The notes under the pieces were generated by a model. It had not been told where the DNA came from. It saw nothing but the letters and a program-made list of their open reading frames with translations, and ran no database searches. From an uncultured Veillonellaceae bacterium (GTDB lineage: Bacteria > Bacillota > Negativicutes > UBA1444), in NCBI GenBank assembly GCA_964638945.1, contig CAZXCC010000001.1, forward strand, positions 47,945-111,944: a DNA stretch of 64,000 nt. Reading direction: 5' to 3'. This document shows, in pieces, positions 2,127-21,521 of the stretch. Made by a program: the position numbers and the translations under genes. Each line of letters begins with the position of its first letter. The first letter of the stretch is position 1.

Positions 2127-3725
2127 GTGGCTGATTTTCTGGAAACCCTGATCGAAGCGCTGCCTTTTATCGCACGCATTACAGGCGGATATGCGACAGT
2201 GACGGACAGGGACGGTGTCCGCATACGGACGTATGATTCCGAGGGGCAGGAAATAGTGGAGTGGCGGGGAACGGTCTTTGAGCTGGCGAGGGAAGTTGGT
2301 CAGAACGGCCAGGTCCGGATCGGGCCTTCCCAGATCATTGCCGATGCCGAGGCTTGGGCATTGCCGCTGGGTGAATATGTGATCGCCTCCAGCAATCTGG
2401 AAAGAGTGATGAGGGAGAAGGAGCTGCTTGAATCCTTGAAGTCGGCACTACCTTTTATTGCAAGGGTTGCCGGGGGGGAAGCCGTACTGTTCGACGAGGA
2501 AGGAAAACGCACTGCCAGTGTCGGATATGATGGGCAACCCAATACAAACTTTATCGGGCGAGTCAGTAAAGCTGCTCAAAAAGCCATGAAAACGGGTCGC
2601 CCGGTGATTGGGGAATCCATGTCGGCAAATGGTGCAATTGGTGTGAGGATTCCCATCACTCATAGTTTTGGTCTGGGGTTCAATAATGAGCATGGCGTGA
2701 TGCGGCAGCAGAAATTGATGGAGGAAGTAAAAAAATTTCAGTACGCACGCTATAATTTCACAGACATTGTCGGGAACAGCGAAGCGATTCAAAAAGTGAA
2801 AAGCATGGCCAGTTTTGTAGCAAATGGCATATCATCGATATTGATTCTGGGAGAAACCGGAACAGGAAAAGAGATGTTTGCCCAGTCCATCCATAATTGT
2901 AGCGAACGGCGCAGTAAACCTTTTATTGCGGTCAACTGCGGAGCTTTGCCGGCATCGATAATCGAAAGTTATCTGTTCGGTTATGTTGAGGGAGCGTTTA
3001 CGGGAGCCAAAAAGAGCGGCAGTCCGGGCGCTTTTGAGCAGGCAAACGGCGGAACCATTTTTCTCGACGAGCTTGGGGAAATGGATTTCAATTTACAGAG
3101 CAAATTGCTTAGAGTGCTGCAAGAACGGGAAGTAACGAGGATTGGCGGTTCAAAGCCGCTGCACATCGATGTACGGGTTATCGCTTCAACAAACCGTGAT
3201 TTGAGTGAAATGGTTACGGCGAACAAATTTCGCCAGGATCTATATTACAGGCTCAATGTTGTACAGCTGAAAATCCCGCCTCTGCGGGAACGGACCGAAG
3301 ATATTCCGGCTCTGGTCAAGGGAATGATTGACCGATTTAACAATATGCTTGGCAAATTTGTCGTGGGGATATCCGAAGAATGTATCGCCAAACTTTGTGA
3401 ACACAAATGGCCGGGCAATGTGCGGGAATTGCAGAATTGCGTCGAATATGCCATGAACATTATCGGCATCAATGATAGTGTTATCGAAGTGGAGCATTTG
3501 CCGCATAATATACAAAGTATCGTTCAAAACGGCAAAATTCAGACTGTCGGTACGTTGGCGGAAACGGTATTGCTGGCGGAAAAAGAGGCCATCCTAAAAG
3601 CGCTGGCATTCACCGGCCATGCGAAAAAGGAGACGGCCAGGCTCCTTGGCATCAGTACGACCACGCTATGGCGCAAAATGATTGAAACCGGCATTGAAAA
3701 TGCGCCTCCGCTTCCGGAAAAATGA
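2127..3725 (+). CDS. sigma-54-dependent transcriptional activator (NtrC-family EBP); N-terminus is two tandem copies of an uncharacterised roughly 95-aa sensory domain, then AAA+ sigma-54 interaction domain and C-terminal Fis-type HTH
   Basis: GETGTGKE Walker A, GAFTGA sigma-54 contact motif, C-terminal HTH; internal repeat ALPFIARITGG.. / ALPFIARVAGG..; GTG start with GAGGTG RBS. Confidence 0.85.
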   Translation: MADFLETLIEALPFIARITGGYATVTDRDGVRIRTYDSEGQEIVEWRGTVFELAREVGQNGQVRIGPSQIIADAEAWALPLGEYVIASSNLERVMREKELLESLKSALPFIARVAGGEAVLFDEEGKRTASVGYDGQPNTNFIGRVSKAAQKAMKTGRPVIGESMSANGAIGVRIPITHSFGLGFNNEHGVMRQQKLMEEVKKFQYARYNFTDIVGNSEAIQKVKSMASFVANGISSILILGETGTGKEMFAQSIHNCSERRSKPFIAVNCGALPASIIESYLFGYVEGAFTGAKKSGSPGAFEQANGGTIFLDELGEMDFNLQSKLLRVLQEREVTRIGGSKPLHIDVRVIASTNRDLSEMVTANKFRQDLYYRLNVVQLKIPPLRERTEDIPALVKGMIDRFNNMLGKFVVGISEECIAKLCEHKWPGNVRELQNCVEYAMNIIGINDSVIEVEHLPHNIQSIVQNGKIQTVGTLAETVLLAEKEAILKALAFTGHAKKETARLLGISTTTLWRKMIETGIENAPPLPEK

Positions 3726-4595: not shown

Positions 4596-4611
4596 CGGCA
4601 CGATTCTTGCA
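4596..4611 (+). promoter_or_regulatory. sigma-54 (-24/-12) promoter CGGCACG-ATTC-TTGCA upstream of the soluble MCP-like gene
   Basis: GG at 4597-4598 and GC at 4609-4610 with canonical spacing; matches TGGCACG-N4-TTGCW except the first base. Confidence 0.6.
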
Positions 4612-5933: not shown

Positions 5934-5949
5934 TGGCACGGCTCTTGCA
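5934..5949 (+). promoter_or_regulatory. sigma-54 promoter TGGCACG-GCTC-TTGCA, near-perfect consensus, immediately upstream of the RBS/start of the first nicotinate cluster gene
   Basis: GG 5935-5936, GC 5947-5948; exact match to TGGCACG-N4-TTGCW. Confidence 0.75.
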
Positions 5950-5976: not shown

Positions 5977-6450
5977 TTGAATGTTGAAATAACTTGTAGG
6001 ATTAATGGCAAAGAAATTAACATGACGGTTCGGCCTGAAATGCTGTTGGTGGATTTCCTGCGTGATGAACTTGGTTTGACAGGAACGAAGAGAGGCTGCG
6101 GGATCGGTGAATGTGGCGCTTGCACGGTCATAATGGATGGACGCACAGTGGCATCTTGTATTGTTCCTGCCGCTTCGATCGACGGTTCGGATATTTTAAC
6201 GGTGGAAGGGCTGTCTGACGGAGAAAAACTCCATGTCCTTCAGCAGGCTTTCATCGACCATGGCGCAGTACAGTGCGGTTTTTGCACACCTGGGATGCTC
6301 TTGTCGGCAAAGGCTTTATTGGACAAAAATCCAAAACCGACACGGGAAGAGATCCGAGTGGCCATCTCTGGCAATGCATGCCGCTGTACAGGCTATACCA
6401 AAATTGTTGATGCGGTAGAATCAGTGGCAAAACTGGGAGGTGACGTTTGA
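5977..6450 (+). CDS. ndhS: nicotinate dehydrogenase (xanthine dehydrogenase family) 2Fe-2S small subunit
   Basis: two 2Fe-2S motifs CGIGECGAC and CGFCTPG; TTG start 8 nt after GGAGGTG; the ATG at 5839 would include the sigma-54 promoter and is judged less likely. Confidence 0.75.
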   Translation: MNVEITCRINGKEINMTVRPEMLLVDFLRDELGLTGTKRGCGIGECGACTVIMDGRTVASCIVPAASIDGSDILTVEGLSDGEKLHVLQQAFIDHGAVQCGFCTPGMLLSAKALLDKNPKPTREEIRVAISGNACRCTGYTKIVDAVESVAKLGGDV

Positions 6451-7721
6451 TGAACAATGCCGGCATTGGCAGTTCGGTTTTGAAGTCGGATGCGCTTGCC
6501 AAGGTGACGGGGCAGGCGTTATTCGCTGCTGACATGAAACGTCCGGGCATGTTGTTTTGCAAAGTGGTTCGCAACGAAAGCAAAATCGCGCATGCCGTGA
6601 TCGAAGGGATAGATGTGGCGGAAGCAGCGGCAACTCCTGGGGTTGTGGCAGTTTTTACGGCAAAAGACATTCCTGGAACGAACGGCGTCGGCATCATCCT
6701 GAAGGATGAACCGGTGCTCGCGGGGGAAAAAGTCCGTCGCCATGGCGACGCATTGGCTCTTGTCGTGGCTGAAACAGAAGAGATAGCAATTGCAGCAGGC
6801 AAGAAGGTTCGTGCCACATTGAAAGAACTGCCGGCGTATTTTGATCCCATAGCTGCGATGGCTCCTGACGCAGTCAAGATTCACGGATCATCCAATGTGC
6901 TGACCCTGCGCAAGGTTCGCAAGGGGGATGTAGAGGCGGCTTTTGCTGCTTCAAAGGTGATCATTGAAAGACGGTACACTACGCAGACGATTGAGCATGC
7001 CTATATAGAACCGGAAGCGGGATTGGCCGAATACGACGGCAGAATGGTGACGGTTTGGGTTTCAACGCAGAACGCACATTTTGACCGCAAAGAAGTGGCT
7101 CGCAACCTGGGGCTGGGAGTACATCAGGTTCGAATCGTTCAGGCTGTCACCGGCGGCGGGTTTGGCGGCAAACTTGATATTTCGGTGCAATGTTATCTGG
7201 CCCTGGCAGCTTACAAAACCGGGCGCCCGGTGAAAATGGTCTGGCAACGGGAAGAATCCATGATTGCATCAGCCAAGCGGCATCCGTACCTGATCGATTA
7301 CAAGACAGGCGCCGATGCGGACGGCAGGTTGCTGGCCGTGAAAGCAAATATCATTGGCGACTCAGGTGCCTACGCGTCTTATGGGCCGGCTGTGCTGACA
7401 AGGGCCGCGGTTCATGCTACCGGTCCCTATGAAGTGCCCAATGTCCATGTGGACGCATATGCCGTATACACAAATAACCCCCAGGCCGGAGCCATGCGTG
7501 GCTTTGGCGTGCCGCAGATGGCTTTTGCGCATGAGACGCAGATGGATCTTCTGGCGGAAGAACTGGGCCTCTCCCCCTTCGAAGTTCGCAGGAGGAATGT
7601 ATTGCGTCCGGGGGGGACGACTGCGACGGGCCAAGTGCTGGAACATAGTGTGGGCATCGGAATGACGCTGGAACAAGCCTGTAAGGAAGCAGAAAAATTG
7701 TTCCGCACGGGGGTACTGTAA
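6450..7721 (+). CDS. ndhL: nicotinate dehydrogenase molybdopterin subunit, N-terminal half (NdhL-like)
   Basis: aldehyde oxidase/xanthine dehydrogenase a/b hammerhead region; ATGA overlap with ndhS stop. Confidence 0.75.
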   Translation: MNNAGIGSSVLKSDALAKVTGQALFAADMKRPGMLFCKVVRNESKIAHAVIEGIDVAEAAATPGVVAVFTAKDIPGTNGVGIILKDEPVLAGEKVRRHGDALALVVAETEEIAIAAGKKVRATLKELPAYFDPIAAMAPDAVKIHGSSNVLTLRKVRKGDVEAAFAASKVIIERRYTTQTIEHAYIEPEAGLAEYDGRMVTVWVSTQNAHFDRKEVARNLGLGVHQVRIVQAVTGGGFGGKLDISVQCYLALAAYKTGRPVKMVWQREESMIASAKRHPYLIDYKTGADADGRLLAVKANIIGDSGAYASYGPAVLTRAAVHATGPYEVPNVHVDAYAVYTNNPQAGAMRGFGVPQMAFAHETQMDLLAEELGLSPFEVRRRNVLRPGGTTATGQVLEHSVGIGMTLEQACKEAEKLFRTGVL

Positions 7722-8774
7722 ATGAAGAAACGTGGTACAGGAATCGGTTGCATGTGGTATGGCATCGGCAATACGGGGCTTCCCAATCCGGCAGCGGCGT
7801 TTGTCGAATGGCTGGATGACGGGACGGCCAATTTGCTCGTCGGATGCGCGGATATAGGACAGGGATCGGATACCGCACTTGCCCAGATTGTGGCGGAAGA
7901 GCTCGGCATCAGTGCTGAAAACGTCATGGTCACCTCGGCTGACACGATGGTCACCCCTGAAGGCGGCGCTACAAGCGCCAGCCGACAGACTTACATTTCC
8001 GGCAACGCAGCACGCCTGGCGGCCAAGGAAGCCAAGCAGGTGGCGATTGCGGAAGCGAAAGAGATGTTGAAAACAACCGGCAATGTTGATTTTTCCCGTG
8101 GGTTCGTCTTGGTAGACGGAAAACCGGGAGAGCTTTCTGTGAAAGAAGTATTGGGCAGCTGTCGCATGAAGGGAAAACTCACGCTGGGACACGGGTGGTT
8201 CAATCCGGCGACAACAGGACTGGATACTGCCACGGGTGTAGGTTCGCCTTACGGAACATACGCTTTTGCCACGCAGGTGGCTGAAGTGGAAGTGGATACG
8301 GAAACCGGAAAAGTCGAAGTTCTTCGCCTCGTAGCTTCCCATGACGTTGGAAAGGCCATCAATCCCCAACTGGTCCAGGCGCAGATCGAGGGTGGCAGTG
8401 TCATGGGGGTCGGCTATGCCTTACTTGAGGAGATTAACGTTTCTGGCGGCCGCATTACAAATCCCAACTTTGATGCGTATCTTTTGCCCACTGCACTGGA
8501 TACGCCTGAGATTTATTCGTTTATCGTCGAAGATCACGAACCCACCGGCCCTTTCGGGGCGAAAGGCGTCGGGGAACCTGCTCTGATTCCAACTGCGGCG
8601 GCGATTGCCAATGCCGTGTACGACGCAATCGGTGTCAGAATCTATTCCCTGCCGATTTCTCCGGAACGGGTGCTCCAGGCGCTGGCAGAGAAAAAGAATG
8701 AGCAAAAGCCTGGCAACTGCAGTGGACCGGTATATGCGATTTGTTCAATCGGTGTGGAAGAAAGCAAGCCCTAA
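7722..8774 (+). CDS. ndhM: nicotinate dehydrogenase molybdopterin subunit, C-terminal half (NdhM-like)
   Basis: xanthine dehydrogenase family Mo-binding C-terminal region; clean TAA-ATG junction with GGGGGT RBS, mirroring the split 50+37 kDa L/M subunits of the E. barkeri enzyme. Confidence 0.75.
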   Translation: MKKRGTGIGCMWYGIGNTGLPNPAAAFVEWLDDGTANLLVGCADIGQGSDTALAQIVAEELGISAENVMVTSADTMVTPEGGATSASRQTYISGNAARLAAKEAKQVAIAEAKEMLKTTGNVDFSRGFVLVDGKPGELSVKEVLGSCRMKGKLTLGHGWFNPATTGLDTATGVGSPYGTYAFATQVAEVEVDTETGKVEVLRLVASHDVGKAINPQLVQAQIEGGSVMGVGYALLEEINVSGGRITNPNFDAYLLPTALDTPEIYSFIVEDHEPTGPFGAKGVGEPALIPTAAAIANAVYDAIGVRIYSLPISPERVLQALAEKKNEQKPGNCSGPVYAICSIGVEESKP

Positions 8775-8822
8775 TATCCGGGAGGCAGATTCCCGGCAAT
8801 CATGATAAGGAGAGTGACACAA

Positions 8823-9995
8823 ATGGCAAACCTAGTAATTACCAACATCGGCACAATTGTTTCAGGGGACATCGATTCTCCGATTCTCCAGGGTAACACC
8901 ATCGTTATCAAAGACGGAAAAATTGATGCCGTGGGAAATGCGGAACTGGTAGACGCTCTCAAAAAAGAATCGGTCGAATTCAAAACCATTGACGCAGGTG
9001 GTATGACAGTGACCCCGGGTCTGATTGATTCGCATGTTCATCCGGTCATCGGCGACTATACACCGAGGCAAAAGATGTCGGATTTTATCGACAGTTCCAT
9101 TCATGGAGGCGTGACTTCGATGATCTCCGCAGGGGAATGTCATACGCCGGGCCGTCCGACGGATCCGGCCGGTGTAAAAGCTCTGGCCATTCTGGCGAAA
9201 AAATCATTCGCAAATCTTAAGCCGGGCGGTGTGAAAGTTCATGCCGGCTCCGTGATTCTTGAAAAAGGGCTGACGGAAGCTGATTTTGCTGAGATGGCGG
9301 CAGCGGGTGTCAATATCGTCGGCGAGGTGGGCCTGGGTTCGGTAAAGAAGCCTGAAGATGCTGCGCCCATGGTGGCCTGGGCCAAGAAGCACAATATGAA
9401 AGTCATGATGCACACGGGCGGCACTTCGATTCCAGGTAGCTCCACAGTATCTGCAGATGACGTGATCAAAACGGACCCGGACGTAGTATCTCACATCAAT
9501 GGCGGCCCTACGGCGGTTTCATTGAAAGAGGTCGACAGGTTGCTTGACGAGACGCAGTTTGCATTGGAGATCGTACAGTGCGGCAACCCGAAAGTGGCTG
9601 ACTATGTGGCGCGCAAAGCGGCTGCCAAGAACCAGATGCATCGGATTATTTTCGGCAACGATGCTCCTTCCGGCACCGGCGTGATTCCTCTGGGGATTCT
9701 TCGAAACATCTGCCAGATTGCCAGCATATCTGAGATTCCTGCAGAAAAAGCCATTGCGATGGCTTCGGGAAACACTGCCCGTACTTATGGATTGAACACC
9801 GGAGTGATTGCGCCGGGAAAAGACGCGGATCTTGTGATTTTGGACACACCGATGGGCTCGGTCGGCAAGAATGCGCTGGAAGCGATTGAAGCCGGAGATT
9901 TGCCTGGAGTCGCGTTGGTACTTGTTGATGGAGTGATCAAGGTAAACAAGAGCCGCAATACTCCGCCGACAGTGGGAAAAGTAACGGGTGCCTAA
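8823..9995 (+). CDS. ena: enamidase-like amidohydrolase (1,4,5,6-tetrahydro-6-oxonicotinate amidohydrolase)
   Basis: amidohydrolase metal motif GLIDSHVHP; 390 aa, matching the about 386-aa E. barkeri enamidase; cluster context. Confidence 0.7.
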   Translation: MANLVITNIGTIVSGDIDSPILQGNTIVIKDGKIDAVGNAELVDALKKESVEFKTIDAGGMTVTPGLIDSHVHPVIGDYTPRQKMSDFIDSSIHGGVTSMISAGECHTPGRPTDPAGVKALAILAKKSFANLKPGGVKVHAGSVILEKGLTEADFAEMAAAGVNIVGEVGLGSVKKPEDAAPMVAWAKKHNMKVMMHTGGTSIPGSSTVSADDVIKTDPDVVSHINGGPTAVSLKEVDRLLDETQFALEIVQCGNPKVADYVARKAAAKNQMHRIIFGNDAPSGTGVIPLGILRNICQIASISEIPAEKAIAMASGNTARTYGLNTGVIAPGKDADLVILDTPMGSVGKNALEAIEAGDLPGVALVLVDGVIKVNKSRNTPPTVGKVTGA

Positions 9996-10016: not shown

Positions 10017-11525
10017 ATGATCATTGTCAAGAAGGAACTCTGCAAGGCCTGCGGCTTATGTGTCAAGAACTGTCCGGCAAGCGCGGTCAAAGTCATAGAC
10101 AAATTGGCCGTGGTGCAGGAGAATTGCGTCAGTTGCGGCGTCTGCGTCCGTGTCTGCCCTTTTCAGGCAATCATGCGCGAAGTGGAAATTGCTGCAGGCG
10201 CAGTTTCTTGCCGTTCATGCCCGGTCCAATGCGAAATCAAGGCAGGGTTTGAAGGTGCATGCAAACGCTATAGCAACATCAACGGAAAATTGGTGCGAAA
10301 CCGTGAACTGGTACTGGAAAATACCCGGTCTCAGGTGCCGGACCGGACAATCCCGGATAAGCCTCTGATTACTGCCGTAGGTGCGGGTACAGAGTATCCC
10401 TGCTGCCGTCCGGCCCCTCATATTGTCGGTGAGACGATCGACGGCATCGATGTGGTGACCGTAGTGACGGAAGCTCCGCTCAGTTACAGCGGTATCAAGG
10501 TAAAGATTGACGCCAACCGCCACATCGGCGAAGAAGGCGCGAAGATATTCAGGGACGGTGCGCTCGTCGGCATGGTGGACACCGAAGAGTATGGATCAAA
10601 GATGATTTACATCGGCGGAGCGAATATTCTGAGCGGGAAGAATGGATTTGCCGCGGCCCGGACCATTGTCGAACTGGCGAATGAAGAACGAGTGACACTG
10701 CAGGTCGAAAAAGGAAGCAAGCTGGAACTGCAGGTCGGTCACGCACCAATCATTGACGGTGTTGCCGAAAAGAAAATGCGTGTTGGTTGCGGCAGTGCAA
10801 CCGTCGGTATGTTTGCACGTATCATGAGTCAGGCAGTGGATGAAGCCATCGTGCTGGACCATCATGTTATTGGACTTCTGTCGGAACACCGGGCGGGTGA
10901 AGAGGTTGGAATGCGCTGGAGCGGCGTTGTTCCAAACGGCAGAAAAAGTACAAGGGGTAGATATTTCGGGGAGCATGGGCATGGTTGGGGCGGCACTCAT
11001 ATCGAAAAGCCTCTGGATGCAGTCAAGTCTGTAGATATGAGCATCGCCAGACAGGGCATGAAAATATTGGTTACCGAAACTACCGGGCAAAAAGGCGCAT
11101 TGCTGGAAGTGCAAGCGGATGGCAGTGTGCGCGAGATTCCGATGACTCCGGATGCTCAGGCCGCTGTCAACATGATTGTCGACAATTGTGAGGAAGCCAG
11201 GGTATCTGCCGTTTATGTCGGCGGAACCGGCGGCAGTGCGAGAGCAGGCGTGACGACCTATCCCATCAAGCTTTCACGCGCCGTGCATGCAGGGGAAGCA
11301 AAGTTGACAATCGGCGGGGCCATGGCCTACATCCTTCCGGGAGGCGGCATAAATTTTCTGGTGGATGTGGAAAAAGTGGAACCGAAGGCTTTTACCTGGG
11401 TTCCGACTCCTGCAACAGTAGCGCCGGTTGAATATACGATGACCCGCCGCAAATATGAAGAAATCGGTGGACATGTCGAGTCCATCAAACCCCTCTCCAC
11501 GCTCAAAAAGGCGAACAAAAAATGA
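10017..11525 (+). CDS. hnr: 6-hydroxynicotinate reductase-like protein with N-terminal 2x[4Fe-4S] ferredoxin domain
   Basis: CKACGLCVKNCP and CVSCGVCVRVCP motifs plus additional Cys clusters; position and size consistent with Hnr of the E. barkeri pathway. Confidence 0.6.
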   Translation: MIIVKKELCKACGLCVKNCPASAVKVIDKLAVVQENCVSCGVCVRVCPFQAIMREVEIAAGAVSCRSCPVQCEIKAGFEGACKRYSNINGKLVRNRELVLENTRSQVPDRTIPDKPLITAVGAGTEYPCCRPAPHIVGETIDGIDVVTVVTEAPLSYSGIKVKIDANRHIGEEGAKIFRDGALVGMVDTEEYGSKMIYIGGANILSGKNGFAAARTIVELANEERVTLQVEKGSKLELQVGHAPIIDGVAEKKMRVGCGSATVGMFARIMSQAVDEAIVLDHHVIGLLSEHRAGEEVGMRWSGVVPNGRKSTRGRYFGEHGHGWGGTHIEKPLDAVKSVDMSIARQGMKILVTETTGQKGALLEVQADGSVREIPMTPDAQAAVNMIVDNCEEARVSAVYVGGTGGSARAGVTTYPIKLSRAVHAGEAKLTIGGAMAYILPGGGINFLVDVEKVEPKAFTWVPTPATVAPVEYTMTRRKYEEIGGHVESIKPLSTLKKANKK

Positions 11526-12355
11526 TCAGGGAATTGGGGCCGGGCAAGGTTGCGCTTGATTTTGGTCCTACCCAGATGAATATTCATGTTTCCGGCGACA
11601 ATGCCGGTACCGGCATTGCGAAAGAAGCAGCGGATTACGCAATAAAGCTGGTTACGGAACTGGCGGGTTTTAAAACGATTGCAGCCAGGCCGCAAAGCGA
11701 AATCGGCACGCTGGAGGATCTGCCTGTCGTGCTCCAGAGAATGATCGAGTCTGTCAGAAAAACCGGGGATACGGATCTGACCCCCATGGCTGCAGTTGCC
11801 GGAACTCTATCGGACATGACTGCAGACTGGCTTTTTGCCAGAGGCGTCTCGAAGGTTATCGTCAACAATGGCGGCGATATTGCGATAAGACTCTCGGGAG
11901 AACAACGAGCCACGGTTGGCATTGCACCGGCCTTGGGCATGCCGCCGACCCACGTTCTGCATATCGGTGCAGCCGATGGCATCGGCGGTGTGACAACAAG
12001 CGGTTCAGGCGGACGAAGTTTCACCAAAGGAATTGCCACCGCCGCCACCGTTGCGGCAAAAACGGCGTCGATAGCCGACGCCTGCGCCACAAGCATCGGC
12101 AACGCAACCTTTTCTCCCCATCCATCCATCCGCATGGCTAGAGCGGAAGAAATCGATCCATTGACTGACATCGCAGGGCACTGGGTGGTTCGGGACGTGG
12201 GAGAACTGCCGCAGGAAACGGTTCAGGCAGCTCTTGAAAACGGATGGATGAGGGCAAAAAGCTATTTGGACAGAGGGATCATCAAAGGATGCGTTATCTT
12301 TATCGGACAAGCTGGAGTGGTGCTGCCGGAAGGGCTAGTGACTCCCTTGCCGTAA
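11522..12355 (+). CDS. conserved hypothetical protein, Gly/Ala-rich, in nicotinate cluster (possible Hnr accessory)
   Basis: ORF 277 aa translationally coupled (ATGA) to hnr; no motif recognised. Confidence 0.45.
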   Translation: MIRELGPGKVALDFGPTQMNIHVSGDNAGTGIAKEAADYAIKLVTELAGFKTIAARPQSEIGTLEDLPVVLQRMIESVRKTGDTDLTPMAAVAGTLSDMTADWLFARGVSKVIVNNGGDIAIRLSGEQRATVGIAPALGMPPTHVLHIGAADGIGGVTTSGSGGRSFTKGIATAATVAAKTASIADACATSIGNATFSPHPSIRMARAEEIDPLTDIAGHWVVRDVGELPQETVQAALENGWMRAKSYLDRGIIKGCVIFIGQAGVVLPEGLVTPLP

Positions 12356-12376
12356 AAATTAAGAGGAGGGTATATT

Positions 12377-12961
12377 ATGGAACTGGAAATTCGTAAGATT
12401 GTAACTGTTGTGGAAGAAACCTGCAAGGAAGCCGGACGCAAACTGGAAAAACCGACGCGCAAAGCTGCGGCGATGGCTGTTGTTGCCAATCCGTATGCGG
12501 GGCAATATGTGGAAGACCTGAATCCGCTGATTGATGCCTGCCTGCCGCTCGGAGAGCTCTTGACCAAACGTGCAGTGGAAGCATTGGGCATTGCGCCTGA
12601 AAAAGTAGAAAGCTATGGCAAGGCGGCTATCGTAGGCATAAATGGCGAACTGGAGCATGCCGCGGCGCTGCTGCATCCCAAACTCGGGACACCGATCCGC
12701 GATAATGTCGGCGGAGGAAAGGCAATTCTGCCTTCAACCAAAAAAGTCGGTGGACCAGGAACGGCGATCGATGTATCACTCGGATTCAAAAACGCCGCAT
12801 ACGTGCGGACTCACTTCGATGCAATGGAAGTACGGATTGCCGATGCTCCACGGGACAATGAAATTGTCCTTATCGTTGCTGTGACTGATTCGGGCCGTCC
12901 GCTGGCGCGTGTGGGCGGATTGACTGTGGATCAGGTCAAAGGCGAAGACGGATTGCGCTAA
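12377..12961 (+). CDS. amino-acid-synthesis (AA_synth/DUF1185) family protein, function unknown
   Basis: N-terminal MELEIRKIVTVVEE... and length about 190 aa typical of that family (from memory). Confidence 0.5.
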   Translation: MELEIRKIVTVVEETCKEAGRKLEKPTRKAAAMAVVANPYAGQYVEDLNPLIDACLPLGELLTKRAVEALGIAPEKVESYGKAAIVGINGELEHAAALLHPKLGTPIRDNVGGGKAILPSTKKVGGPGTAIDVSLGFKNAAYVRTHFDAMEVRIADAPRDNEIVLIVAVTDSGRPLARVGGLTVDQVKGEDGLR

Positions 12962-13007: not shown

Positions 13008-13024
13008 AATTGGGGGGAAGAAAG

Positions 13025-13912
13025 GTGCGTATCGGATTTATCGGTATCGGAGCCATGGGAAAACCGATGGCGCTGAACCTTCTAAAGGCTGGCCATGAAC
13101 TGTATGTTTTTGATGTCGTGGCAGCTGCGGTGGCAGACATGGTTGCTCAGGGGGGGCAGGCATGCACGTCGCCCAAAGAGCTTGCGCAGAAGACGGAAGC
13201 AGTTATTACAATGCTGCCCAATGCCAAGATTGTGGAAAGTACACTGACAGGTGAAAACGGGCTTTTAGCCGGCTCACGTCCCGGACAGGTTTTCATCGAC
13301 ATGAGCAGTGTCTCCGCTGGCAGTACGAAACTGATGGCCAAACTCGCCGGTGAAAAAGGGGTCGGCTATGTGGATGCACCGGTAAGCGGCGGGGTGGCTG
13401 GCGCTACGGCTGGAACACTGACCATCATGGTTGGGGGAAGTGTGGATGACGTTGCGAAAGTACAACCCATACTGCAGGCTATGGGGAAAAACATCCACCA
13501 TGTCGGAGAAGTGGGTGCGGGTGATTCCATCAAGGTCGTCAACAATCTGCTGCTCGGGATCAATATGGCAGCGGTTGCTGAAGCGTTGGTGCTCGGAGTG
13601 AAATCCGGCCTGTCGCCCCAGGTCATGCTTGATATCATCAAGGGGAGCTCCGGCCGAAGTTATGCGTTGGAGGCGAAGACTCCGGGCTTTATCCTGAAAA
13701 ATAATTTTGCAGCCGGATTTGCCATCGACCTGCAGTACAAGGATCTGGAACTGGCGGCCGAAACGGCAAAAAGTCTGGGAATGCCGCTTCCGCTGGGATC
13801 CATGGCGCAACAGATTTTTGAAATGGCCAGGGCCAAGGGACTGGGGCGCGAGGATATTTCAGCAGTGATCAAGGTGTGGGAAGAACTGGTCGGCGTGCAA
13901 GTGAGGGAATAG
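13025..13912 (+). CDS. hgd: 2-(hydroxymethyl)glutarate dehydrogenase-like (3-hydroxyisobutyrate dehydrogenase family, NAD-binding)
   Basis: GFIGIGAMGKPMALNL Rossmann motif; about 296 aa; cluster context. Confidence 0.75.
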   Translation: MRIGFIGIGAMGKPMALNLLKAGHELYVFDVVAAAVADMVAQGGQACTSPKELAQKTEAVITMLPNAKIVESTLTGENGLLAGSRPGQVFIDMSSVSAGSTKLMAKLAGEKGVGYVDAPVSGGVAGATAGTLTIMVGGSVDDVAKVQPILQAMGKNIHHVGEVGAGDSIKVVNNLLLGINMAAVAEALVLGVKSGLSPQVMLDIIKGSSGRSYALEAKTPGFILKNNFAAGFAIDLQYKDLELAAETAKSLGMPLPLGSMAQQIFEMARAKGLGREDISAVIKVWEELVGVQVRE

Positions 13913-13919
13913 AAGGTAG

Positions 13920-15344
13920 GTGCAGGGGATGGAGAAGATATATAAGGAATTAAAAGAAAAGAATTTGTTGCCGGGCCAGCTGACTATCGGTGACTGTATT
14001 GGTGTGGCCAAAACAGTCGGAACGAGTGTTGGTGAAGTGATCATTGCCGAAGCGATGGAAGTCGGCAAAATGACCCGGCAGGAAGTGCTGTCGGCCGTGA
14101 TGGCAAGTTTTTCTCACAATCTGTATGCGATAGAAATCGGTACAACAACTGGTTCCAGCTTTCTGATGGGCAACGCGGGGCGGGAACTGACACAGGGAGC
14201 TGCCCCGCAGATTGTGGAAGATACTTTCCTGAACAAGGTGCTGGGATTTACGATTGGGGCACAGGTGGGAAACCATTCGGTCGGTTTGCAGCCTTGCGCC
14301 GGAACTGGCGATTCCTGTACGTATTCGGGTTTTGTCAAAGCCATGTTGGAAGAGGTGGCCGATCAGGAGCTGATTGCCCGTGTTGCGGCTGTCATGCTGA
14401 AAATCGGTACGATATTTCGCGTGGGTAAAACATCAACCGGCTGTAATATGGAAGGATTTGGTGCAGGTTCCGCTGCTTCTGCGGCAGCGTTCATCGAACT
14501 AGCCGGCGGTACACCGGAACAGATGGAGAAGGCCATTGTCCTGGCCTTGTCACCAACGATCGCGGTTCCTTGTACCCCCAGGGTCATGGTGGCCGGAATT
14601 TGCGCCACGCATATCGGCGGTGGCGTAATGATCGGCAAACTGGCGGCGCAGCTTGCGATGCATACCTCCATCCCCATCACCGTTCCTGCAGATGTGATGA
14701 TCGCCATGGCGGCAGCCGTTCATCCGATATCCGCCAAACATGTGGTTCCCACAGTGATTCAGTACATGGAGCCTTTTTTCAAAACCAACCTGGCGGTAGA
14801 AGGCTATATTTCTCCGGAAATAAAGGCGGAGGAAAAGGAGCGGATCGATCAGACTATTGGTCATGCTCTTGCTGAAGCCCGAGAACTGGCCCGCAAATCC
14901 AACCCGATCGTCAAACCGTTCAGTGAGGCGGTTGTAGGCGGAAGCAGCCAAGCTGTCGGTTCCCCGACGAACGCGGCCCGGATTGCGCATTTCCTTGCCA
15001 AAGGCGAAGTGAAGAAAGTCAAAATCGAGCTGTATCCCGAATTATTTGCCAGACGCGGCATCAATGTGCCGGGCATCCTGATGGCGGCAATTTACGGCGC
15101 AGGGACGGATAACAGCAAACTGTATCGTGAAGTCATGGACAAAGTGAAGGCTGCGGGAATCGAAGTGGAAATCCTGCAGGCCAGCGAATCTCAGATGCAG
15201 CGGATTACCGTCGAAGCCAGTGAAAAGAACGGGATGGTGCAGACTCTCAATCGTGGCGGAGCCCGCCTGGTTCTGCAAAAAGCATCCGATTTGGCAGAAG
15301 CATTCCGGATTGCCAAGGACCTTGGCATTGAAACGGTCGAGTAG
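13920..15344 (+). CDS. hmd: 2-(hydroxymethyl)glutarate dehydratase-like (Fe-S L-serine dehydratase family, fused beta+alpha)
   Basis: serine dehydratase-like single-chain architecture 474 aa; cluster context. Confidence 0.7.
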   Translation: MQGMEKIYKELKEKNLLPGQLTIGDCIGVAKTVGTSVGEVIIAEAMEVGKMTRQEVLSAVMASFSHNLYAIEIGTTTGSSFLMGNAGRELTQGAAPQIVEDTFLNKVLGFTIGAQVGNHSVGLQPCAGTGDSCTYSGFVKAMLEEVADQELIARVAAVMLKIGTIFRVGKTSTGCNMEGFGAGSAASAAAFIELAGGTPEQMEKAIVLALSPTIAVPCTPRVMVAGICATHIGGGVMIGKLAAQLAMHTSIPITVPADVMIAMAAAVHPISAKHVVPTVIQYMEPFFKTNLAVEGYISPEIKAEEKERIDQTIGHALAEARELARKSNPIVKPFSEAVVGGSSQAVGSPTNAARIAHFLAKGEVKKVKIELYPELFARRGINVPGILMAAIYGAGTDNSKLYREVMDKVKAAGIEVEILQASESQMQRITVEASEKNGMVQTLNRGGARLVLQKASDLAEAFRIAKDLGIETVE

Positions 15345-15355
15345 GAGGAACGGTC

Positions 15356-16564
15356 GTGAATTTTATAGAAAAATATCTGGCTGCTGCGGCCGGTCTTGAA
15401 AAGGTAAGTGTAGGGCAAGATTTGCGCTGCCGGGTGGATCTGGCACTCAGCCATGACGTTACTGCGCCGATAGCCATTCAACAATTCGAACAGATTGGCA
15501 TCGACCATGTGTTTGATCCAGCCAAAGTGGTCCTGGTCATCGACCACATCTTTCCCGCATCGACCGTCCAGGCCCGGACTTCACATTGGATCATGAAAGA
15601 TTTTGCAGCAAAATTCGGTGTCACACTGTATAGCAAAGGGGAAGGCGTCTGCCACCAGCTCCTGTCGGAGCGGCATCGTTTGCAACCGGGGCAGATTCTG
15701 GTGGGGGCAGACTCACACACTTGTACAGCCGGCGGTTACGGCGTGATCGGAATCCCTGTCGGATCGACGGAACTGGCTGCTGCGATGGCGACCGGTACAA
15801 TCGACCTGGAAGTTCCACCTGTGGTCGAAGTCTTCATGACTGGCGCCCTGAATCCCGGCGTAAGCGGCAAGGACATCGTTCTGAGCCTGATCAAGCGTTT
15901 CGGCGTCGATGGGCTTACAGACAAGGCGGTTGTTTTTACTGGCCCGGGAATTACAGGAATTTCTACAGGGGAACGGATGACGATCTGTAATATGGGAATC
16001 GAGATGGGCGCAATGATTGCCTGCTTTGGAGAGGAAACCAAAGCGGAGGATGTTGCGGAAAGCATTCCGCTGGAGCTGGAAAAACTGGTTCCGCTTGCGG
16101 CCTGTCCGCATTCACCAGCCAATGTTCGCCCGGTTTCCGACCTGAAGGACGTATCGGTAACCCAGGTGGTGGTCGGCAGTTGTACGAACGGGAGACTGAA
16201 CGACATGGAAAAAGTAGTCGATGTGCTCAGAAACCATAAAGTTCATCCCGATGTAAACTGTCTGATAATCCCCGCATCGAAAAACATACTGGATGCGATG
16301 GAAGAACAAGGCTGGTGCAAAATTTTGCGCGATGCCGGCGCTGTGGTGGCAAATCCCGGTTGTGGCCCGTGTTTTGGCGCTCATCAGGGATTGGGCACGG
16401 AACGCGACGTGATCGTATCCACCACGAATCGTAATTTCCCAGGACGAATGGGGCACCGGACCGCGAATATCTATCTTGCTTCACCCGCTACGGCAGCTGC
16501 ATCGGCGGTGACCGGGAAAATTACCGAACCAGGTTCGCTGGCAGCCGGAGGTGATTTGAAATGA
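15356..16564 (+). CDS. dmdA: dimethylmaleate hydratase large subunit (aconitase/LeuC family)
   Basis: GADSHTCTAGG aconitase-family motif; GTG start after GGAGG. Confidence 0.75.
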   Translation: MNFIEKYLAAAAGLEKVSVGQDLRCRVDLALSHDVTAPIAIQQFEQIGIDHVFDPAKVVLVIDHIFPASTVQARTSHWIMKDFAAKFGVTLYSKGEGVCHQLLSERHRLQPGQILVGADSHTCTAGGYGVIGIPVGSTELAAAMATGTIDLEVPPVVEVFMTGALNPGVSGKDIVLSLIKRFGVDGLTDKAVVFTGPGITGISTGERMTICNMGIEMGAMIACFGEETKAEDVAESIPLELEKLVPLAACPHSPANVRPVSDLKDVSVTQVVVGSCTNGRLNDMEKVVDVLRNHKVHPDVNCLIIPASKNILDAMEEQGWCKILRDAGAVVANPGCGPCFGAHQGLGTERDVIVSTTNRNFPGRMGHRTANIYLASPATAAASAVTGKITEPGSLAAGGDLK

Positions 16565-17055
16565 AGACAATCAAGGGTCGTGTATGGGTTTTTGACGACA
16601 ATGTGGATACCGATCAGATACTGCCTGGCTATGCAATGGCCGAGGCTGCAGCTTCCCTGGGACGTTTTGCCATGGCTGGCAGCAAGATTCCGGATTTCTC
16701 CGGCAAGGTTCAAGCCGGTGACATTATTGTCGCAGGCAAAAACTTCGGCTGCGGTTCCAGTCGGGAGCAGGCGCCGGTTGCGCTGAAACTGGCAGGAGTC
16801 AGTCTGCTCATTGCTCCCTCTTTTGCCCGGATTTTTCGCCGGAATTCCATCAATATCGGATTGCCGGTGATGTTGGGAGATATTCGGGAGGAAGTCAAAA
16901 CAGGAGATATTATCGAAGTGGATATTGAAAGCGGCGTTATTGTCGCTGCGGAGAGAAAACTGTCAGCTCAACCTCTGGCGCCCAATGTGCTGGCAACGGT
17001 GCGGGCCGGCGGCCTGATCAACCGTGTCCGCCAAGAACTGGGTATTGCAAACTGA
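16561..17055 (+). CDS. dmdB: dimethylmaleate hydratase small subunit (LeuD-like)
   Basis: 164 aa LeuD-like swivel domain; ATGA overlap with dmdA. Confidence 0.75.
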
Positions 17056-17080
17056 ACGATATACTGCAGGAGGAACCAAA

Positions 17081-18928
17081 ATGCAAGAAAAAACCATGCG
17101 GATTATTACCGAGGACTATGACAGAGTAAAAGCATATTCGGAAACCTTTGCCGTTCCCATGCCGACCCTGGGCAAGGATGGATCGGTGGATGGTCTGCCG
17201 GCTCCATATCCGCGGGAAGTCTGCGGTGTCCAGCGCAGCGGCTACCGGATTTATGAACTGGCACAACAAGCTGAAAAAACAGGGATTCCTGTGCAGAATC
17301 CGATACTTGGGCGCAATACGGCGGAAGAAACCTATAAAGAATCGGTTGAAATGTATAATATGGCCGAAAAACTGGGCATCAAAATATTCCATTTTGTGCA
17401 CTCGGAAGCTACGCGCCATATCGATCCCTTGAACGGACGAGAACTGATCGAACAGTCGCGCGGCAAGGGCGGCATTACGCCGATGGGTGAACGAAAACTG
17501 GTGGAACTGGGCGGAGGCTCGATTCATCCGATGCGGATCAATGCAACAGGGGATACTCCGCATCTTTCGATCATCAACGCCCTGCTGGCCGGATTTGACG
17601 GAACGGACATCGGACCGGTCATTCATGTGCACTTCGGCGGCCGAGGCATCCATGACTACAAGACCAAAGTGGTAAACGGATTCCGCGCCTTGGAAATTTG
17701 TGCCGAGCACAATATGTTCGTGCAAATTGAGTCGCACAAGCACTTGAATAATATCGGCGGAACGGATGGGATGGCTCTGGCCATGTGTCTGCTGGCAGAA
17801 GGCTTGGGCGTTCTTGCCGGTCTGCCTCCGGAACTGAGCGCAGTGCAGATGAATGTGACAGGATTGAACTTGCTCGGAGATCTCGCATCAATGCGTGCCT
17901 TCAAGGAAACCATGTGGAGCAAGAGCCTGATCGTAGTGCCGGAAACCTTCCAGAATCCTCCGGGCGACCTGATTGCTGAATCGGCGCACTTTGCCCGGAT
18001 GGCGATTAGTGCAAAGCTTGGAGGCGCCCACTTCTACCGTCCGAAAGCAGCCGAGTCCGTGGGAATTCCCACTGGCGGCTCCATGGCAAAAGCGATCTGG
18101 GGAACACAAAACGTGTTCGAAAACACGGTGAAAGTGGAAATCCACGATCCGTACATCGAAGTCCGGAAAAATGAAATTCTTGATGAAGCCATGGCGGTGC
18201 TGGAAGGCGTTCTGGGCATCGGCCGTACGCTGGCGCCTGATGAAATCAACGAGAAATTCTGGCGCAAATATGACAAGGATGAACTGAGTGAAAAAATTGT
18301 CACTGCAGGCAAAGCCGGAATAATGGACTGCCCGCGCGCCGGCGGCTGGGATTTGAAACGCCATGTGCGAACGCACCGTGACAAAGACGGTATCAAACGA
18401 TATGTTCCGGGTTTCACTCCGTTGGGCGTGGATTCCGCACGTATGGCGATCACGACGGAACCGGTGGAAGTGCCGGAAGTGAAAAAACCTACCCGCAAGC
18501 AAAAAATGGTGCTGGCGACAGTTGGCGCCGATGCTCACGTCATGGGAATCAACATGATCAAGGAAGCTTTCGAAAAAGCCGGCTACGAGGTGATTTACCT
18601 CCGCGGCATGAACCTGCCGGAAACAGTGGCGGAAGTAGCGGCTGAAGCCAAGGCCGAGATTATTGGCATTACGAACCTTCTCGGGATGGGCCGCGAATTG
18701 TTCCCGAGGGTGCAGAAACGTCTGCAGGAACTGGGGATGAGCGATAAGGTCCTGCTCATCGCTGGGGGCCGGATTGCCGAAAAAGAAGAAGAACATGCCT
18801 ATTTTGAAGAAAAAATCGCCAAAGAAGGTCCGACTTTCCTCGGAGTGGAGAATTTCTTCGGGCCGGGCACCGATCCGGTCAAATGTGTCGAGTGGACCGC
18901 AAAAGCACTTGAAAGGAAGGGTCTGTAA
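17081..18928 (+). CDS. mgm: 2-methyleneglutarate mutase (adenosylcobalamin-dependent)
   Basis: C-terminal B12-binding domain with [12 protein letters not shown] (DxHxxG) motif; 615 aa, same as the E. barkeri enzyme; GGAGG RBS. Confidence 0.8.
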
Positions 18929-20061
18929 TGGGAGATATGCGTCGAATTCCCTGTGTAATTTTGCGTGGCGGCACAAGCAAAGGGATATATCTGAAATCCA
19001 ACCATCTGCCTCAGGATAAAGAAGCGCGGGACAAAGTCATTCTGGAGATTTTTGGCAGTCCGGATGTCCGACAGATTGACGGATTGGCCGGCGCCGACCC
19101 ATTGACAAGCAAAGTGGCAATCATTGGGCCGTCCACTCATCCCGGAGCCGATGTGGACTATACCTTTGGCCAGGTCAGCATCAACGCACCCTATATTGAC
19201 TATTCCGGAAACTGCGGCAATATTTCGTCGGGGGTGGGGCCGTTTGCAATCGACGAAGGTTTTGTCGCTGCGACCGGTTCCATGACCACAGTTCGGATTC
19301 ACAACACCAATACGGGAAAAATTCTGATTGCCGAAGTTCCGACGGAAGACGGTCTCGCAAAAGTAAACGGCGACTGCAAGATCGACGGAGTACCCGGTAC
19401 CGGCGCCCAAATCATGATGGACTTTTCCGGCACGGCGGGTTCGGTGACAAACAAACTGCTGCCGACAGGCAATCCTGTTGATACCATCAACACCAGCGCC
19501 GGCCCTTTGCAAATTTCGATCGTGGATGTGTCCAATCCCTGCGTGTTTGTCAGAGCAAAAGATGTGGGCATGAAAGGCGGCGAGACGCCCCAGGAAGTCA
19601 ACGGGAATCCGAAATTGCTGGGTCTCATGGAGGAAATCCGTGCCCAGGCCTGCGTGATGATCGGCATGGCGCCGGATGTGGCTACCGCCACAGCCAAGAG
19701 CCCGGCATTCCCAATGGTGGCCTATGTGTCCCCTGCGGCGGATTATGTTGATTTCACCACAGGCAAGACCATCAGCAAAGATCAGATCGATTTCATTTCC
19801 CGCATGATGTTCATGCAGGTGCTGCACAAAACCTACCCGGGAACCGGCACGGCATGTACCGGCGCAGCGGCGAAAATTCCGGGAACAATTGTCAACGAAG
19901 CAATCCCGCATATTGACTCCATCAAGATTATCCGCATCGGGCATCCGGCAGGAGTGATCGAGATTGAGGCCGCTTTTGAAAAAGGCGAGTTGTCAAGGGC
20001 TGCGTTTGCCCGAACGGCAAGGCGCATTATGGAAGGGTACGTCTACGTCAGAAATTCGTGA
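18928..20061 (+). CDS. mii: 3-methylitaconate delta-isomerase (PrpF family)
   Basis: PrpF-like N-terminus IPCVILRGGTSKG; 377 aa; TAATG overlap with mgm. Confidence 0.75.
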   Translation: MGDMRRIPCVILRGGTSKGIYLKSNHLPQDKEARDKVILEIFGSPDVRQIDGLAGADPLTSKVAIIGPSTHPGADVDYTFGQVSINAPYIDYSGNCGNISSGVGPFAIDEGFVAATGSMTTVRIHNTNTGKILIAEVPTEDGLAKVNGDCKIDGVPGTGAQIMMDFSGTAGSVTNKLLPTGNPVDTINTSAGPLQISIVDVSNPCVFVRAKDVGMKGGETPQEVNGNPKLLGLMEEIRAQACVMIGMAPDVATATAKSPAFPMVAYVSPAADYVDFTTGKTISKDQIDFISRMMFMQVLHKTYPGTGTACTGAAAKIPGTIVNEAIPHIDSIKIIRIGHPAGVIEIEAAFEKGELSRAAFARTARRIMEGYVYVRNS

Positions 20062-21520: not shown

Positions 21521-21521
21521 C

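What the first reader, a model, noticed from the sequence alone, without database searches (positions are those of the whole stretch)
6450..8774. Molybdopterin subunit split into two genes exactly as in E. barkeri nicotinate dehydrogenase
The Mo-binding large subunit is encoded as 424 aa plus 350 aa separated only by TAA-ATG, with an RBS in front of the second gene. This is not a frameshift. It reproduces the unusual 50 kDa plus 37 kDa L/M split reported for the selenium-containing E. barkeri enzyme, and it is a strong diagnostic that this is a nicotinate (not xanthine or CO) dehydrogenase.
Basis: partly seen in the sequence, partly recalled or inferred. Interest (0 to 1): 0.5.

Follow-up and report, generated by a model that had tools for sequence, protein, structure and literature searches.

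The report
Split nicotinate dehydrogenase molybdenum subunit
The two adjacent genes are real and together encode the molybdenum-binding part of a nicotinate (vitamin B3) dehydrogenase, cut at the same place as in the textbook Eubacterium barkeri enzyme, but this is an ordinary new member of a known system, and it is the surrounding pathway genes, not the split, that identify it.

Summary
Observation confirmed. ndhL (6450-7721, 423 aa) and ndhM (7722-8774, 350 aa) are separated only by TAA|ATG, in the same reading frame, with a G-rich Shine-Dalgarno 9 nt upstream. Their best solved-structure hits are E. barkeri NdhL and NdhM (3HRD A/B; 51-52% identity), and the break is at the homologous residue (both M subunits start MKKRG). 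In 59 fused relatives and an AlphaFold model, the break lies in a variable-length coil between a helix and a strand. The same junction occurs in independent assemblies, so it is not an assembly error.

The nicotinate assignment holds, but it rests on context. All the nicotinate-fermentation genes follow (ena, hnr, hgd, hmd, dmdAB, mgm, mii, dml, ndhF), and several are near-perfect matches to E. barkeri structures.

The claim that the split is "a strong diagnostic" is not supported. Of 23 genome loci with ena/hnr next to the Mo subunit, 20 are fused, including six with the full fermentation cluster. Of 10 split loci, 7 have no ena or hnr in the fetched flanks, and the five in a proteobacterial clade also have different active-site residues. 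Split and fused forms interleave inside the well-supported nicotinate clade.

Unlike E. barkeri, ndhF lies 13.6 kb downstream. Verdict: new member of a known kind, low interest.

The parts
2127..3725 (+). sigma-54-dependent transcriptional activator, likely regulator of the cluster
   Evidence: Pfam Sigma54_activat 1.7e-69, AAA_lid_14, HTH_8. The same gene sits upstream in the syntenic relative L081. The regulatory role is inferred.
5934..5949 (+). sigma-54 promoter-like site TGGCACGGCTCTTGCA (-24/-12 consensus), 28 nt before the ndhS start
   Evidence: It is the only exact match to TGGCAC-N5-TTGCW in the 64 kb window. Function is inferred from its position and the nearby activator gene. With one mismatch allowed, the number of matches is not above chance.
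5977..6450 (+). ndhS, [2Fe-2S] small subunit (157 aa from TTG 5977, GGAGG 8 nt upstream)
   Evidence: Pfam Fer2_2 + Fer2. PDB 3HRD_D NdhS 1.4e-49, tied with 4ZOH_C. The start was chosen from the sequence and from the 157-aa gene call in L081.
6450..7721 (+). ndhL, N-terminal part of the Mo subunit (423 aa): hammerhead domain, MoCoBD_1 and the first helix of MoCoBD_2
   Evidence: PDB 3HRD_A 9.2e-125, query 6-415 on target 8-416. 51% identity. Pfam. The start ATG overlaps the ndhS stop (TGATG).
7708..7724 (+). L/M junction: GGGGG Shine-Dalgarno, in-frame TAA, then ATG immediately after
   Evidence: Sequence. Identical in L082 and L083 and conserved in L081. Both genes are in the same frame.
7722..8774 (+). 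ndhM, C-terminal part of the Mo subunit (350 aa; MoCoBD_2 from profile position 23), carrying the conserved GVGEPAL motif (M282-288) shared with E. barkeri NdhM
   Evidence: PDB 3HRD_B 1.3e-100, query 1-322 on target 1-326. 52% identity. Pfam MoCoBD_2 positions 23-283 of 283. The last ~28 residues form a lineage-specific tail.
8802..9995 (+). ena, enamidase
   Evidence: PDB 2VUN (E. barkeri enamidase) is the only hit, 5.9e-169.
10017..11525 (+). hnr, 6-hydroxynicotinate reductase candidate (N-terminal 2x[4Fe-4S] ferredoxin domain)
   Evidence: Pfam Fer4 families. It co-occurs with ena, the ApbE-like gene and AA_synth in 20+ loci. The name comes from position and homology within nicotinate clusters; there is no solved structure.
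11522..12961 (+). ApbE-like gene (11522-12355) and AA_synth-family gene (12377-12961), conserved companions of hnr
   Evidence: Pfam ApbE 3e-07 and AA_synth 1.3e-75. Conserved order Ena-Hnr-ApbE-AAsyn.
13010..13912 (+). hgd, 2-(hydroxymethyl)glutarate dehydrogenase
   Evidence: PDB 3CKY (E. barkeri) 4e-107; the next hit is 1.7e-66.
13920..15344 (+). hmd, 2-(hydroxymethyl)glutarate dehydratase candidate (serine-dehydratase-like)
   Evidence: Pfam SDH_alpha 5.7e-07. Conserved in the full clusters.
15356..17055 (+). dmdA/dmdB, dimethylmaleate hydratase large and small subunits (aconitase family)
   Evidence: Pfam Aconitase 1.2e-90 and Aconitase_C 1.3e-19.
17024..18928 (+). mgm, B12-dependent 2-methyleneglutarate mutase candidate (ORF limits; the true start is probably an internal ATG)
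   Evidence: Pfam B12-binding 1.1e-15. 65-83% identical homologues in the other clusters.
18928..20061 (+). mii, 3-methylitaconate isomerase
   Evidence: PDB 3G7K (E. barkeri) 7.3e-168. Pfam PrpF.
20084..21520 (+). MutL-family (PF13941) protein, probable mutase accessory or reactivating protein
   Evidence: Pfam MutL 9e-139. It follows mii in the other clusters. The role is inferred.
21441..22394 (+). dml, 2,3-dimethylmalate lyase candidate (probable start at ATG 21522)
   Evidence: Pfam PEP_mutase 5.4e-55 and ICL.
22414..23295 (+). ndhF, FAD subunit (293 aa), displaced to the end of the cluster
   Evidence: Pfam FAD_binding_5 + CO_deh_flav_C. PDB 3HRD_C 9.8e-39, only slightly better than CutM at 9.5e-36. 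Start ATG with GGAAGGAGG upstream.
23448..24806 (+). MFS transporter, possible nicotinate importer
   Evidence: Pfam MFS_1 7.9e-59. The role is inferred from position only.

Best explanation
The region encodes the two-piece molybdopterin subunit (NdhL + NdhM) of a four-subunit nicotinate dehydrogenase (NdhS-L-M plus a distally encoded NdhF). This enzyme hydroxylates nicotinate to 6-hydroxynicotinate as the first step of the anaerobic nicotinate fermentation pathway encoded by the next ~15 kb. The break lies in a short, variable coil after the first helix of the second Mo-cofactor domain. L therefore contributes one helix to M's domain, and the two chains assemble into the same fold as single-chain relatives. 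M is probably translated by coupling or re-initiation at TAA|ATG with its own G-rich Shine-Dalgarno. Shown: the gene structure, the homology, the homologous break point, the coil location in a model of a fused relative, and the pathway context. Inferred: substrate, assembly, translational coupling and sigma-54 control. The split is a lineage trait that has flipped between split and fused several times among nicotinate dehydrogenases. It is not a functional signature of the substrate.
For: Top PDB hits are 3HRD_A and 3HRD_B, end to end, at 51-52% identity. Pfam domains are divided as expected. All split homologues break at the same site, M/V-K-[KR]-[RK]-G. In 59 fused homologues the site is a gap-rich, unconserved linker. 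The AlphaFold2 model of fused relative P0271 (pLDDT 88, pTM 0.90) has helix 402-416, coil 417-425 and strand 426-439, with KKRG at 426. The junction is reproduced in independent assemblies and in an 89%-identical relative. Neighbouring genes match E. barkeri enamidase 2VUN (6e-169), Hgd 3CKY (4e-107) and Mii 3G7K (7e-168), and the remaining pathway families are present. In an NJ tree of L+M the window falls in a clade with E. barkeri and the loci carrying full clusters (bootstrap 96). Thirteen clade-specific residues (L N208, H210, D212, T234, Q247, Y311, R318; M Y13, N17, T18, N22, P23, S85) are shared by the window, E. barkeri and every clade member.
Against: There is no biochemical evidence for this organism. 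Identity to the characterised enzyme is only ~51%. The NdhF and NdhS matches to 3HRD are not clearly better than their matches to CO-dehydrogenase or other family members. ndhF is not in the ndhSLM operon, unlike in E. barkeri. I could not read the 3HRD paper, so the clade-specific residues could not be checked against the published substrate-binding residues. Surface exposure of the linker is inferred from its indel tolerance and coil state, not measured on coordinates.
Confidence: 0.9

Rival explanations
1. The TAA is a sequencing or assembly error, or a recent nonsense mutation (pseudogene), in what is really a single ~774-aa large-subunit gene.
For: L and M are in the same reading frame, separated by one stop codon. 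Fused versions of the protein are common in relatives, including ones in full nicotinate clusters.
Against: The identical junction is found in two other metagenome assemblies. TAAATG is retained in an 89%-identical relative although flanking codons have changed. A proper ATG plus a G-rich SD directly follows the stop. The closest 120 M homologues are all stand-alone proteins. The same break exists in the crystallised, active E. barkeri enzyme (3HRD).
Confidence: 0.02
2. The split L/M architecture is itself a reliable marker of nicotinate specificity.
For: The only biochemically characterised split enzyme found in the PDB search is the E. barkeri nicotinate dehydrogenase. The window, L001, L003 and L005 are split and lie next to nicotinate-pathway genes.
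Against: Twenty of 23 loci with ena/hnr beside the Mo subunit are fused. Seven of 10 split loci have no ena or hnr in the fetched flanks, although L004 and L008 are short contigs. Split and fused forms interleave within the nicotinate clade (bootstraps 96-100). The split proteobacterial clade (L013, L014, L017, L019, L020) sits with GntR, CinA and a LigB-type dioxygenase, and differs at 9 of the 13 clade-specific residues. In the representative library, split and fused hits alternate from 59% identity downward.
Confidence: 0.08
3. The enzyme acts on a different substrate (xanthine or another purine, another pyridine carboxylate, or an aldehyde) and is merely adjacent to the nicotinate pathway genes.
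For: Database names for close homologues are generic or conflicting, for example 'xanthine dehydrogenase family protein', 'selenium-dependent xanthine dehydrogenase' and 'CoxL/CutL-like'. Substrate cannot be read from sequence alone.
Against: The genes are tightly packed on one strand with ena, hnr and the rest of the pathway. The window clusters with E. barkeri NdhL/M at bootstrap 96 and shares all 13 clade-specific residues. The pathway needs a nicotinate 6-hydroxylase, and no other candidate is in the cluster.
Confidence: 0.05

Closest known systems
Eubacterium barkeri nicotinate dehydrogenase NdhF/S/L/M (PDB 3HRD; Alhapel et al. 2006 and Wagener et al. 2009, cited from memory and via PMC10331938)
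   Same: The Mo subunit is encoded as L (~425 aa) plus M (~330 aa), broken at the same residue (M starts MKKRG). The domain content is the same, and the enzyme is embedded in the same nicotinate fermentation gene set (ena, hnr, hgd, hmd, dmdAB, mgm, mii, dml).
   Different: Identity is only 51-52%. ndhF is not upstream of ndhS but 13.6 kb downstream, after dml. M carries a ~28-residue C-terminal tail that E. barkeri and other relatives lack. The stop-start arrangement is an in-frame TAA|ATG. Selenium dependence is unknown here.
Fused (single-chain, ~750 aa) Mo subunits in nicotinate fermentation clusters, e.g. Pseudoflavonifractor capillosus ATCC 29799 (L010), Aequitasia blattaphilus (L011, P0361) and Bacillota MAG L002/P0271
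   Same: They belong to the same clade (bootstrap 96), have the same neighbouring pathway genes, and are 52-61% identical to the window proteins.
   Different: L and M are joined by a 5-15 residue linker where the window has its stop and start codons.
Other xanthine-oxidase-family large subunits with solved structures (D. gigas aldehyde oxidoreductase 1VLB/1SIJ, T. aromatica HcrA 1RM6, R. capsulatus XdhB 1JRO, KdhL 7DQX, CoxL 1N5W)
   Same: The hammerhead + MoCoBD_1 + MoCoBD_2 fold is shared. The AFRGFG-type loop (AMRGFG at L348) and the GVGEPAL motif (M282) are conserved.
   Different: All are single chains across the break point. E-values are 1e-65 and weaker, against 1e-125 for NdhL. The residues at the clade-specific positions differ.
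Split Mo subunits of uncharacterised proteobacterial enzymes (L013, L014, L017, L019, L020)
   Same: The break site is the same (M starts M/V-K-[KR]-[RK]-G), the stop and start overlap, and the order is F-S-L-M.
   Different: There is no ena or hnr within 10 kb. The neighbours are GntR, CinA and a LigB-type ring-cleavage dioxygenase. L identity is 41-43%. Residues differ at L208, 210, 212, 234, 247, 311 and 318 and at M17 and 85. There is no bootstrap support for a shared origin with the nicotinate clade (0-2%).

Membership tests
Xanthine oxidase / molybdenum hydroxylase family (large subunit) | Hammerhead (Ald_Xan_dh_C) + MoCoBD_1 + MoCoBD_2 domains | tested here: met
   Pfam: L = PF01315 (6e-25) + PF02738 (1.1e-88); M = PF20256 (1.7e-73).
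Xanthine oxidase / molybdenum hydroxylase family (large subunit) | Partner [2Fe-2S] and FAD subunits encoded nearby | tested here: met
   ndhS lies directly upstream. ndhF is in the same cluster but 13.6 kb downstream.
E. barkeri-type nicotinate dehydrogenase (NdhFSLM) | Closest characterised homologue is NdhL/NdhM, and the protein falls in the same clade | tested here: met
   3HRD_A 9e-125 and 3HRD_B 1e-100, with the next hits at 1e-65 and 1e-50. NJ clade with E. barkeri at bootstrap 96.
E. barkeri-type nicotinate dehydrogenase (NdhFSLM) | Mo subunit split into L and M at the same position | tested here: met
   L ends 8 residues after the last aligned position (E. barkeri: 9). Both M subunits start MKKRG. 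This feature is not universal in the clade.
E. barkeri-type nicotinate dehydrogenase (NdhFSLM) | ndhF-ndhS-ndhL-ndhM contiguous operon | tested here: not met
   Here the order is ndhS-L-M ... dml-ndhF. The E. barkeri order is taken from PMC10331938. Most other loci have F-S-L(-M).
E. barkeri-type nicotinate dehydrogenase (NdhFSLM) | Co-location with the nicotinate fermentation enzymes (Hnr, Ena, Hgd, Hmd, Mgm, Mii, Dmd, Dml) | tested here: met
   Matches to E. barkeri structures 2VUN, 3CKY and 3G7K.
E. barkeri-type nicotinate dehydrogenase (NdhFSLM) | Nicotinate 6-hydroxylating activity | not testable with these tools
   Needs an enzyme assay.
Selenium-dependent molybdenum hydroxylases (SDMH) | Labile Se ligand on Mo; genomic association with selD and the yqeB/yqeC-type accessory genes (PMC2276186) | tested here: inconclusive
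   No selD or accessory-family gene was recognised among the window ORFs scanned with Pfam. The rest of the genome is not available, and Se content needs chemistry.

The most novel reading that the evidence does not exclude
The linker after the first helix of MoCoBD_2 is a recurrent fission/fusion hot-spot. Within nicotinate dehydrogenases alone the state has flipped at least 2-3 times, and the same site is broken in an unrelated-looking proteobacterial clade. In the window's lineage the two genes remain in frame with a single TAA, one point mutation away from re-fusion. A more exotic variant is that low-level TAA read-through yields both split and fused enzyme; the evidence does not exclude this, but the TAA-A termination context makes it unlikely.
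Probability: 0.5. Interest if true: 0.3.

Novelty: new member of a known kind. Interest (0 to 1): 0.18.

Why it matters
It gives a confident functional annotation: a complete anaerobic nicotinate-fermentation cluster in an uncultured, probably Negativicutes-related bacterium. It also corrects an annotation rule of thumb. The L/M split should not be used to call nicotinate dehydrogenases, because most enzymes in nicotinate-pathway neighbourhoods in this sample are fused, and some split enzymes sit in other contexts. The interleaving of split and fused forms is a small, clean example of gene fission and fusion at a tolerant inter-element loop. It is not a surprise to specialists.

Tried and rejected
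1. Assembly error or pseudogene: rejected on independent assemblies and conservation.
2. I tried to read the primary papers (Wagener 2009 PMC2708692, Self & Stadtman 2000 PMC16524, Alhapel 2006 PMC1562527). None is held. Published active-site residues and the four-subunit purine hydroxylase (54/42/34/20 kDa, from memory) could therefore not be checked. PMC3519856 only mentions 'delta and gamma subunits of purine hydroxylase'.
3. A shared origin of the proteobacterial split clade and the nicotinate clade: no support in L-only or M-only trees (0-2% bootstrap). A single ancient fission cannot be excluded, because the deep nodes are unresolved.
4. Selenium-maturation genes in the window: none recognised.
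5. L022 looked split but is a frameshift-like break in a long-read MAG, and L029 has a ~310-bp insert between L and M. Both dropped out of the counts because their L match was partial (filter).
6. Sigma-70 promoter and terminator scans around the junction gave nothing above shuffled expectation.
Full report
**Observation**

The + strand carries an ORF at 6447/6450-7721 and another at 7722-8774. The junction reads ACGGGGGTACTG-TAA-ATG-AAGAAACGT. The stop (7719-7721) is followed directly by the start (7722), and a GGGGG run ends 9 nt before the ATG. From ATG 6450 the first product is 423 aa. This ATG overlaps the stop of the upstream 2Fe-2S gene as TGATG. The second product is 350 aa. The two genes are in the same frame (1272 nt = 424 codons apart), so only an in-frame TAA separates them. 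It is not a frameshift.

Pfam places the hammerhead domain and MoCoBD_1 in the first protein. MoCoBD_2, from profile position 23 onward, is in the second.

**Is it an artefact?**

The exact 350-aa protein occurs on contigs from two other metagenome samples, with an identical junction (L082, L083). An 89%-identical relative on a 138-kb contig has the same synteny and keeps TAAATG while nearby codons differ (L081). The 120 closest M homologues (61-100% identity) are all stand-alone proteins of 316-355 aa carrying only PF20256. I consider the split real.

**Comparison with E. barkeri**

The best solved-structure matches are 3HRD chain A (NdhL, 425 aa, E 9e-125, aligned 6-415 on 8-416) and 3HRD chain B (NdhM, 330 aa, E 1e-100, aligned 1-322 on 1-326). 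Both M chains begin MKKRG. Identity is 51% for L and 52% for M. The next best hits are single-chain enzymes at E 1e-65 and weaker. The break is therefore at the homologous position.

**Where the break lies in the fold**

I concatenated L+M from the window, E. barkeri and 69 genome loci and aligned them. The break falls between a conserved helix (SVGI-ETLE-A-E-A) and the conserved strand [KR][KR]G-G[IMV]--M-YGIGNTG. The linker between them varies in sequence and differs in length by more than 20 residues among the 59 fused proteins.

An AlphaFold2 model of a fused relative gives the same picture (P0271, 755 aa, 40-sequence alignment, pLDDT 88.2, pTM 0.90). It has helix 402-416, coil 417-425 (WQQTKPGPG) and strand 426-439 starting at KKRG. 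The break therefore does not interrupt a secondary-structure element. Because MoCoBD_2 positions 1-22 lie in L, L donates the first helix of the second cofactor domain. Surface exposure is inferred from indel tolerance; I did not measure it on coordinates.

**What the enzyme is**

The flanking genes make the case.

- ndhS lies directly upstream, probably starting at TTG 5977 (157 aa).
- Downstream genes match E. barkeri structures: enamidase (2VUN is the only PDB hit, 6e-169), 2-(hydroxymethyl)glutarate dehydrogenase (3CKY 4e-107) and 3-methylitaconate isomerase (3G7K 7e-168).
- The remaining pathway families are also present: a ferredoxin-domain protein in the Hnr position, an ApbE-like gene and an AA_synth gene, a serine-dehydratase-like Hmd, aconitase-type DmdA/B, a B12-binding mutase, a PF13941 MutL-type protein and a PEP-mutase/isocitrate-lyase-family Dml.
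- The FAD subunit is ndhF at 22414-23295 (3HRD_C 1e-38). An MFS transporter follows.

This is the full published nicotinate fermentation gene set. The Mo enzyme is its only candidate for the first step.

**Is the split diagnostic?**

I scanned one genome per species with an alignment of M proteins. I then classified each locus using stop-to-stop ORFs and BLASTP with all the window's cluster proteins. The counts for the 69 assessable loci are:

| | with ena/hnr | without |
|---|---|---|
| split | 3 | 7 |
| fused | 20 | 39 |

- Six loci with the full fermentation cluster have a single fused ~750-aa subunit: L002, L006, L007, L010 (Pseudoflavonifractor capillosus ATCC 29799), L011 (Aequitasia blattaphilus) and L012.
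- A search with the fused L002 protein returned 120 fused relatives of 743-932 aa. They come from Sporomusa, Clostridium, Anaerosinus and others.
- In the 50%-identity representative library, split and fused hits alternate from 59% identity downward.

An NJ tree was built from 71 taxa and 739 columns with 100 bootstraps.

- The window, L001-L005, L006, L007, L010-L012 and E. barkeri form one clade at 96%.
- Inside it, split E. barkeri and L005 group at 100% with the fused L006, L007, L010, L011 and L012.
- Fused L002 nests among the split window, L001, L003 and L004 at 78%.
- At least two to three state changes are therefore needed.
- The ena/hnr-linked sister group (Desulfobacterota and Alphaproteobacteria) is entirely fused.

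A separate proteobacterial clade (L013, L014, L017, L019, L020; bootstrap 100) is split at exactly the same residue, mostly with overlapping ATGA or GTGA. In L020 its neighbours are GntR, CinA and a LigB-type dioxygenase. It differs from the nicotinate clade at 9 of 13 clade-specific residues. It shows no bootstrap support for a common origin with the nicotinate clade.

The split is therefore neither necessary nor sufficient for a nicotinate assignment.

**Differences from E. barkeri**

- ndhF is not upstream of ndhS. The E. barkeri order F-S-L-M comes from PMC10331938, and most loci share it. Here ndhF lies after dml, and the nearest genome relative, L001 (Negativicutes MAG, 75% M identity), also has ndhF displaced.
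- NdhM has a lineage-specific C-terminal tail of ~28 residues.
- Selenium dependence cannot be judged. No selD or SDMH accessory gene was recognised in the window.

**Verdict**

This is a genuine, correctly located split of the Mo subunit in an orthologue of a well-characterised enzyme system. It is a new member of a known kind and of low interest. The useful correction is that gene context, not the split, identifies the substrate. The modestly interesting by-product is that this loop has been cut or rejoined repeatedly.

Noticed in passing
window 5934-5949 (+), with 2127-3725 (+): There is an exact sigma-54 -24/-12 consensus (TGGCACGGCTCTTGCA) 28 nt before the probable ndhS start. A one-mismatch copy lies at 4596-4611, before the MCP-like gene. 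A sigma-54 activator gene is 2 kb upstream, which suggests the nicotinate cluster is sigma-54 controlled.
   Followed up: partly
window 22414-23295 (+): The FAD subunit gene ndhF sits at the far end of the cluster after dml, not next to ndhS/L/M. The nearest genome relative, L001, also has it displaced. It is only 31-40% identical to the NdhF proteins of the other clusters, whereas NdhS, L and M are mostly 50-75% identical.
   Followed up: partly
window 2127-3725 and 4708-5547 (+): The N-terminal ~200 residues of the sigma-54 activator have no Pfam hit and appear to contain two copies of a motif (ALPFIAR..GG.A...D..G). The same motif recurs at the N-terminus of the small soluble MCP-signal protein ([12 protein letters not shown]). 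This may be a shared ligand-sensing domain. I read it by eye and did not test it.
   Followed up: no
window 8691-8774 (NdhM residues ~323-350): NdhM ends in a Cys-containing tail (EKKNEQKPGNCSGPVYAICSIGVEESKP) that is absent from E. barkeri NdhM and from the 14 relatives aligned with it.
   Followed up: no
window 39386-42253 (+): A 955-aa ORF has no Pfam match at E <= 1e-3.
   Followed up: no
loci L015, L021, L025-L027, L030, L039, L057 (genome contigs): In Desulfobacterota and Alphaproteobacteria, a compact module occurs without the hgd...dml half of the fermentation pathway in the 10-kb flanks. It consists of a fused Mo subunit plus Ena, Hnr, an ApbE-like gene and AA_synth. This hints at a different downstream route for the ring-opened product.
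   Followed up: no
locus L029, ~1135-1447: In a Pseudorhodoplanes MAG, the L and M homologues are separated by a ~310-bp G/C-rich, repeat-like insert instead of abutting.
   Followed up: no
locus L081 9971-10000: The public gene call for the 89%-identical NdhM relative (P0002, 341 aa) starts at an internal ATG. The conserved TAAATG start lies 10 codons upstream, so database lengths of M proteins are slightly unreliable.
   Followed up: yes
window 514-2076 (+): An aromatic amino-acid (histidine/phenylalanine) ammonia-lyase gene lies just upstream of the regulator. It is conserved in the same position in relative L081.
   Followed up: no
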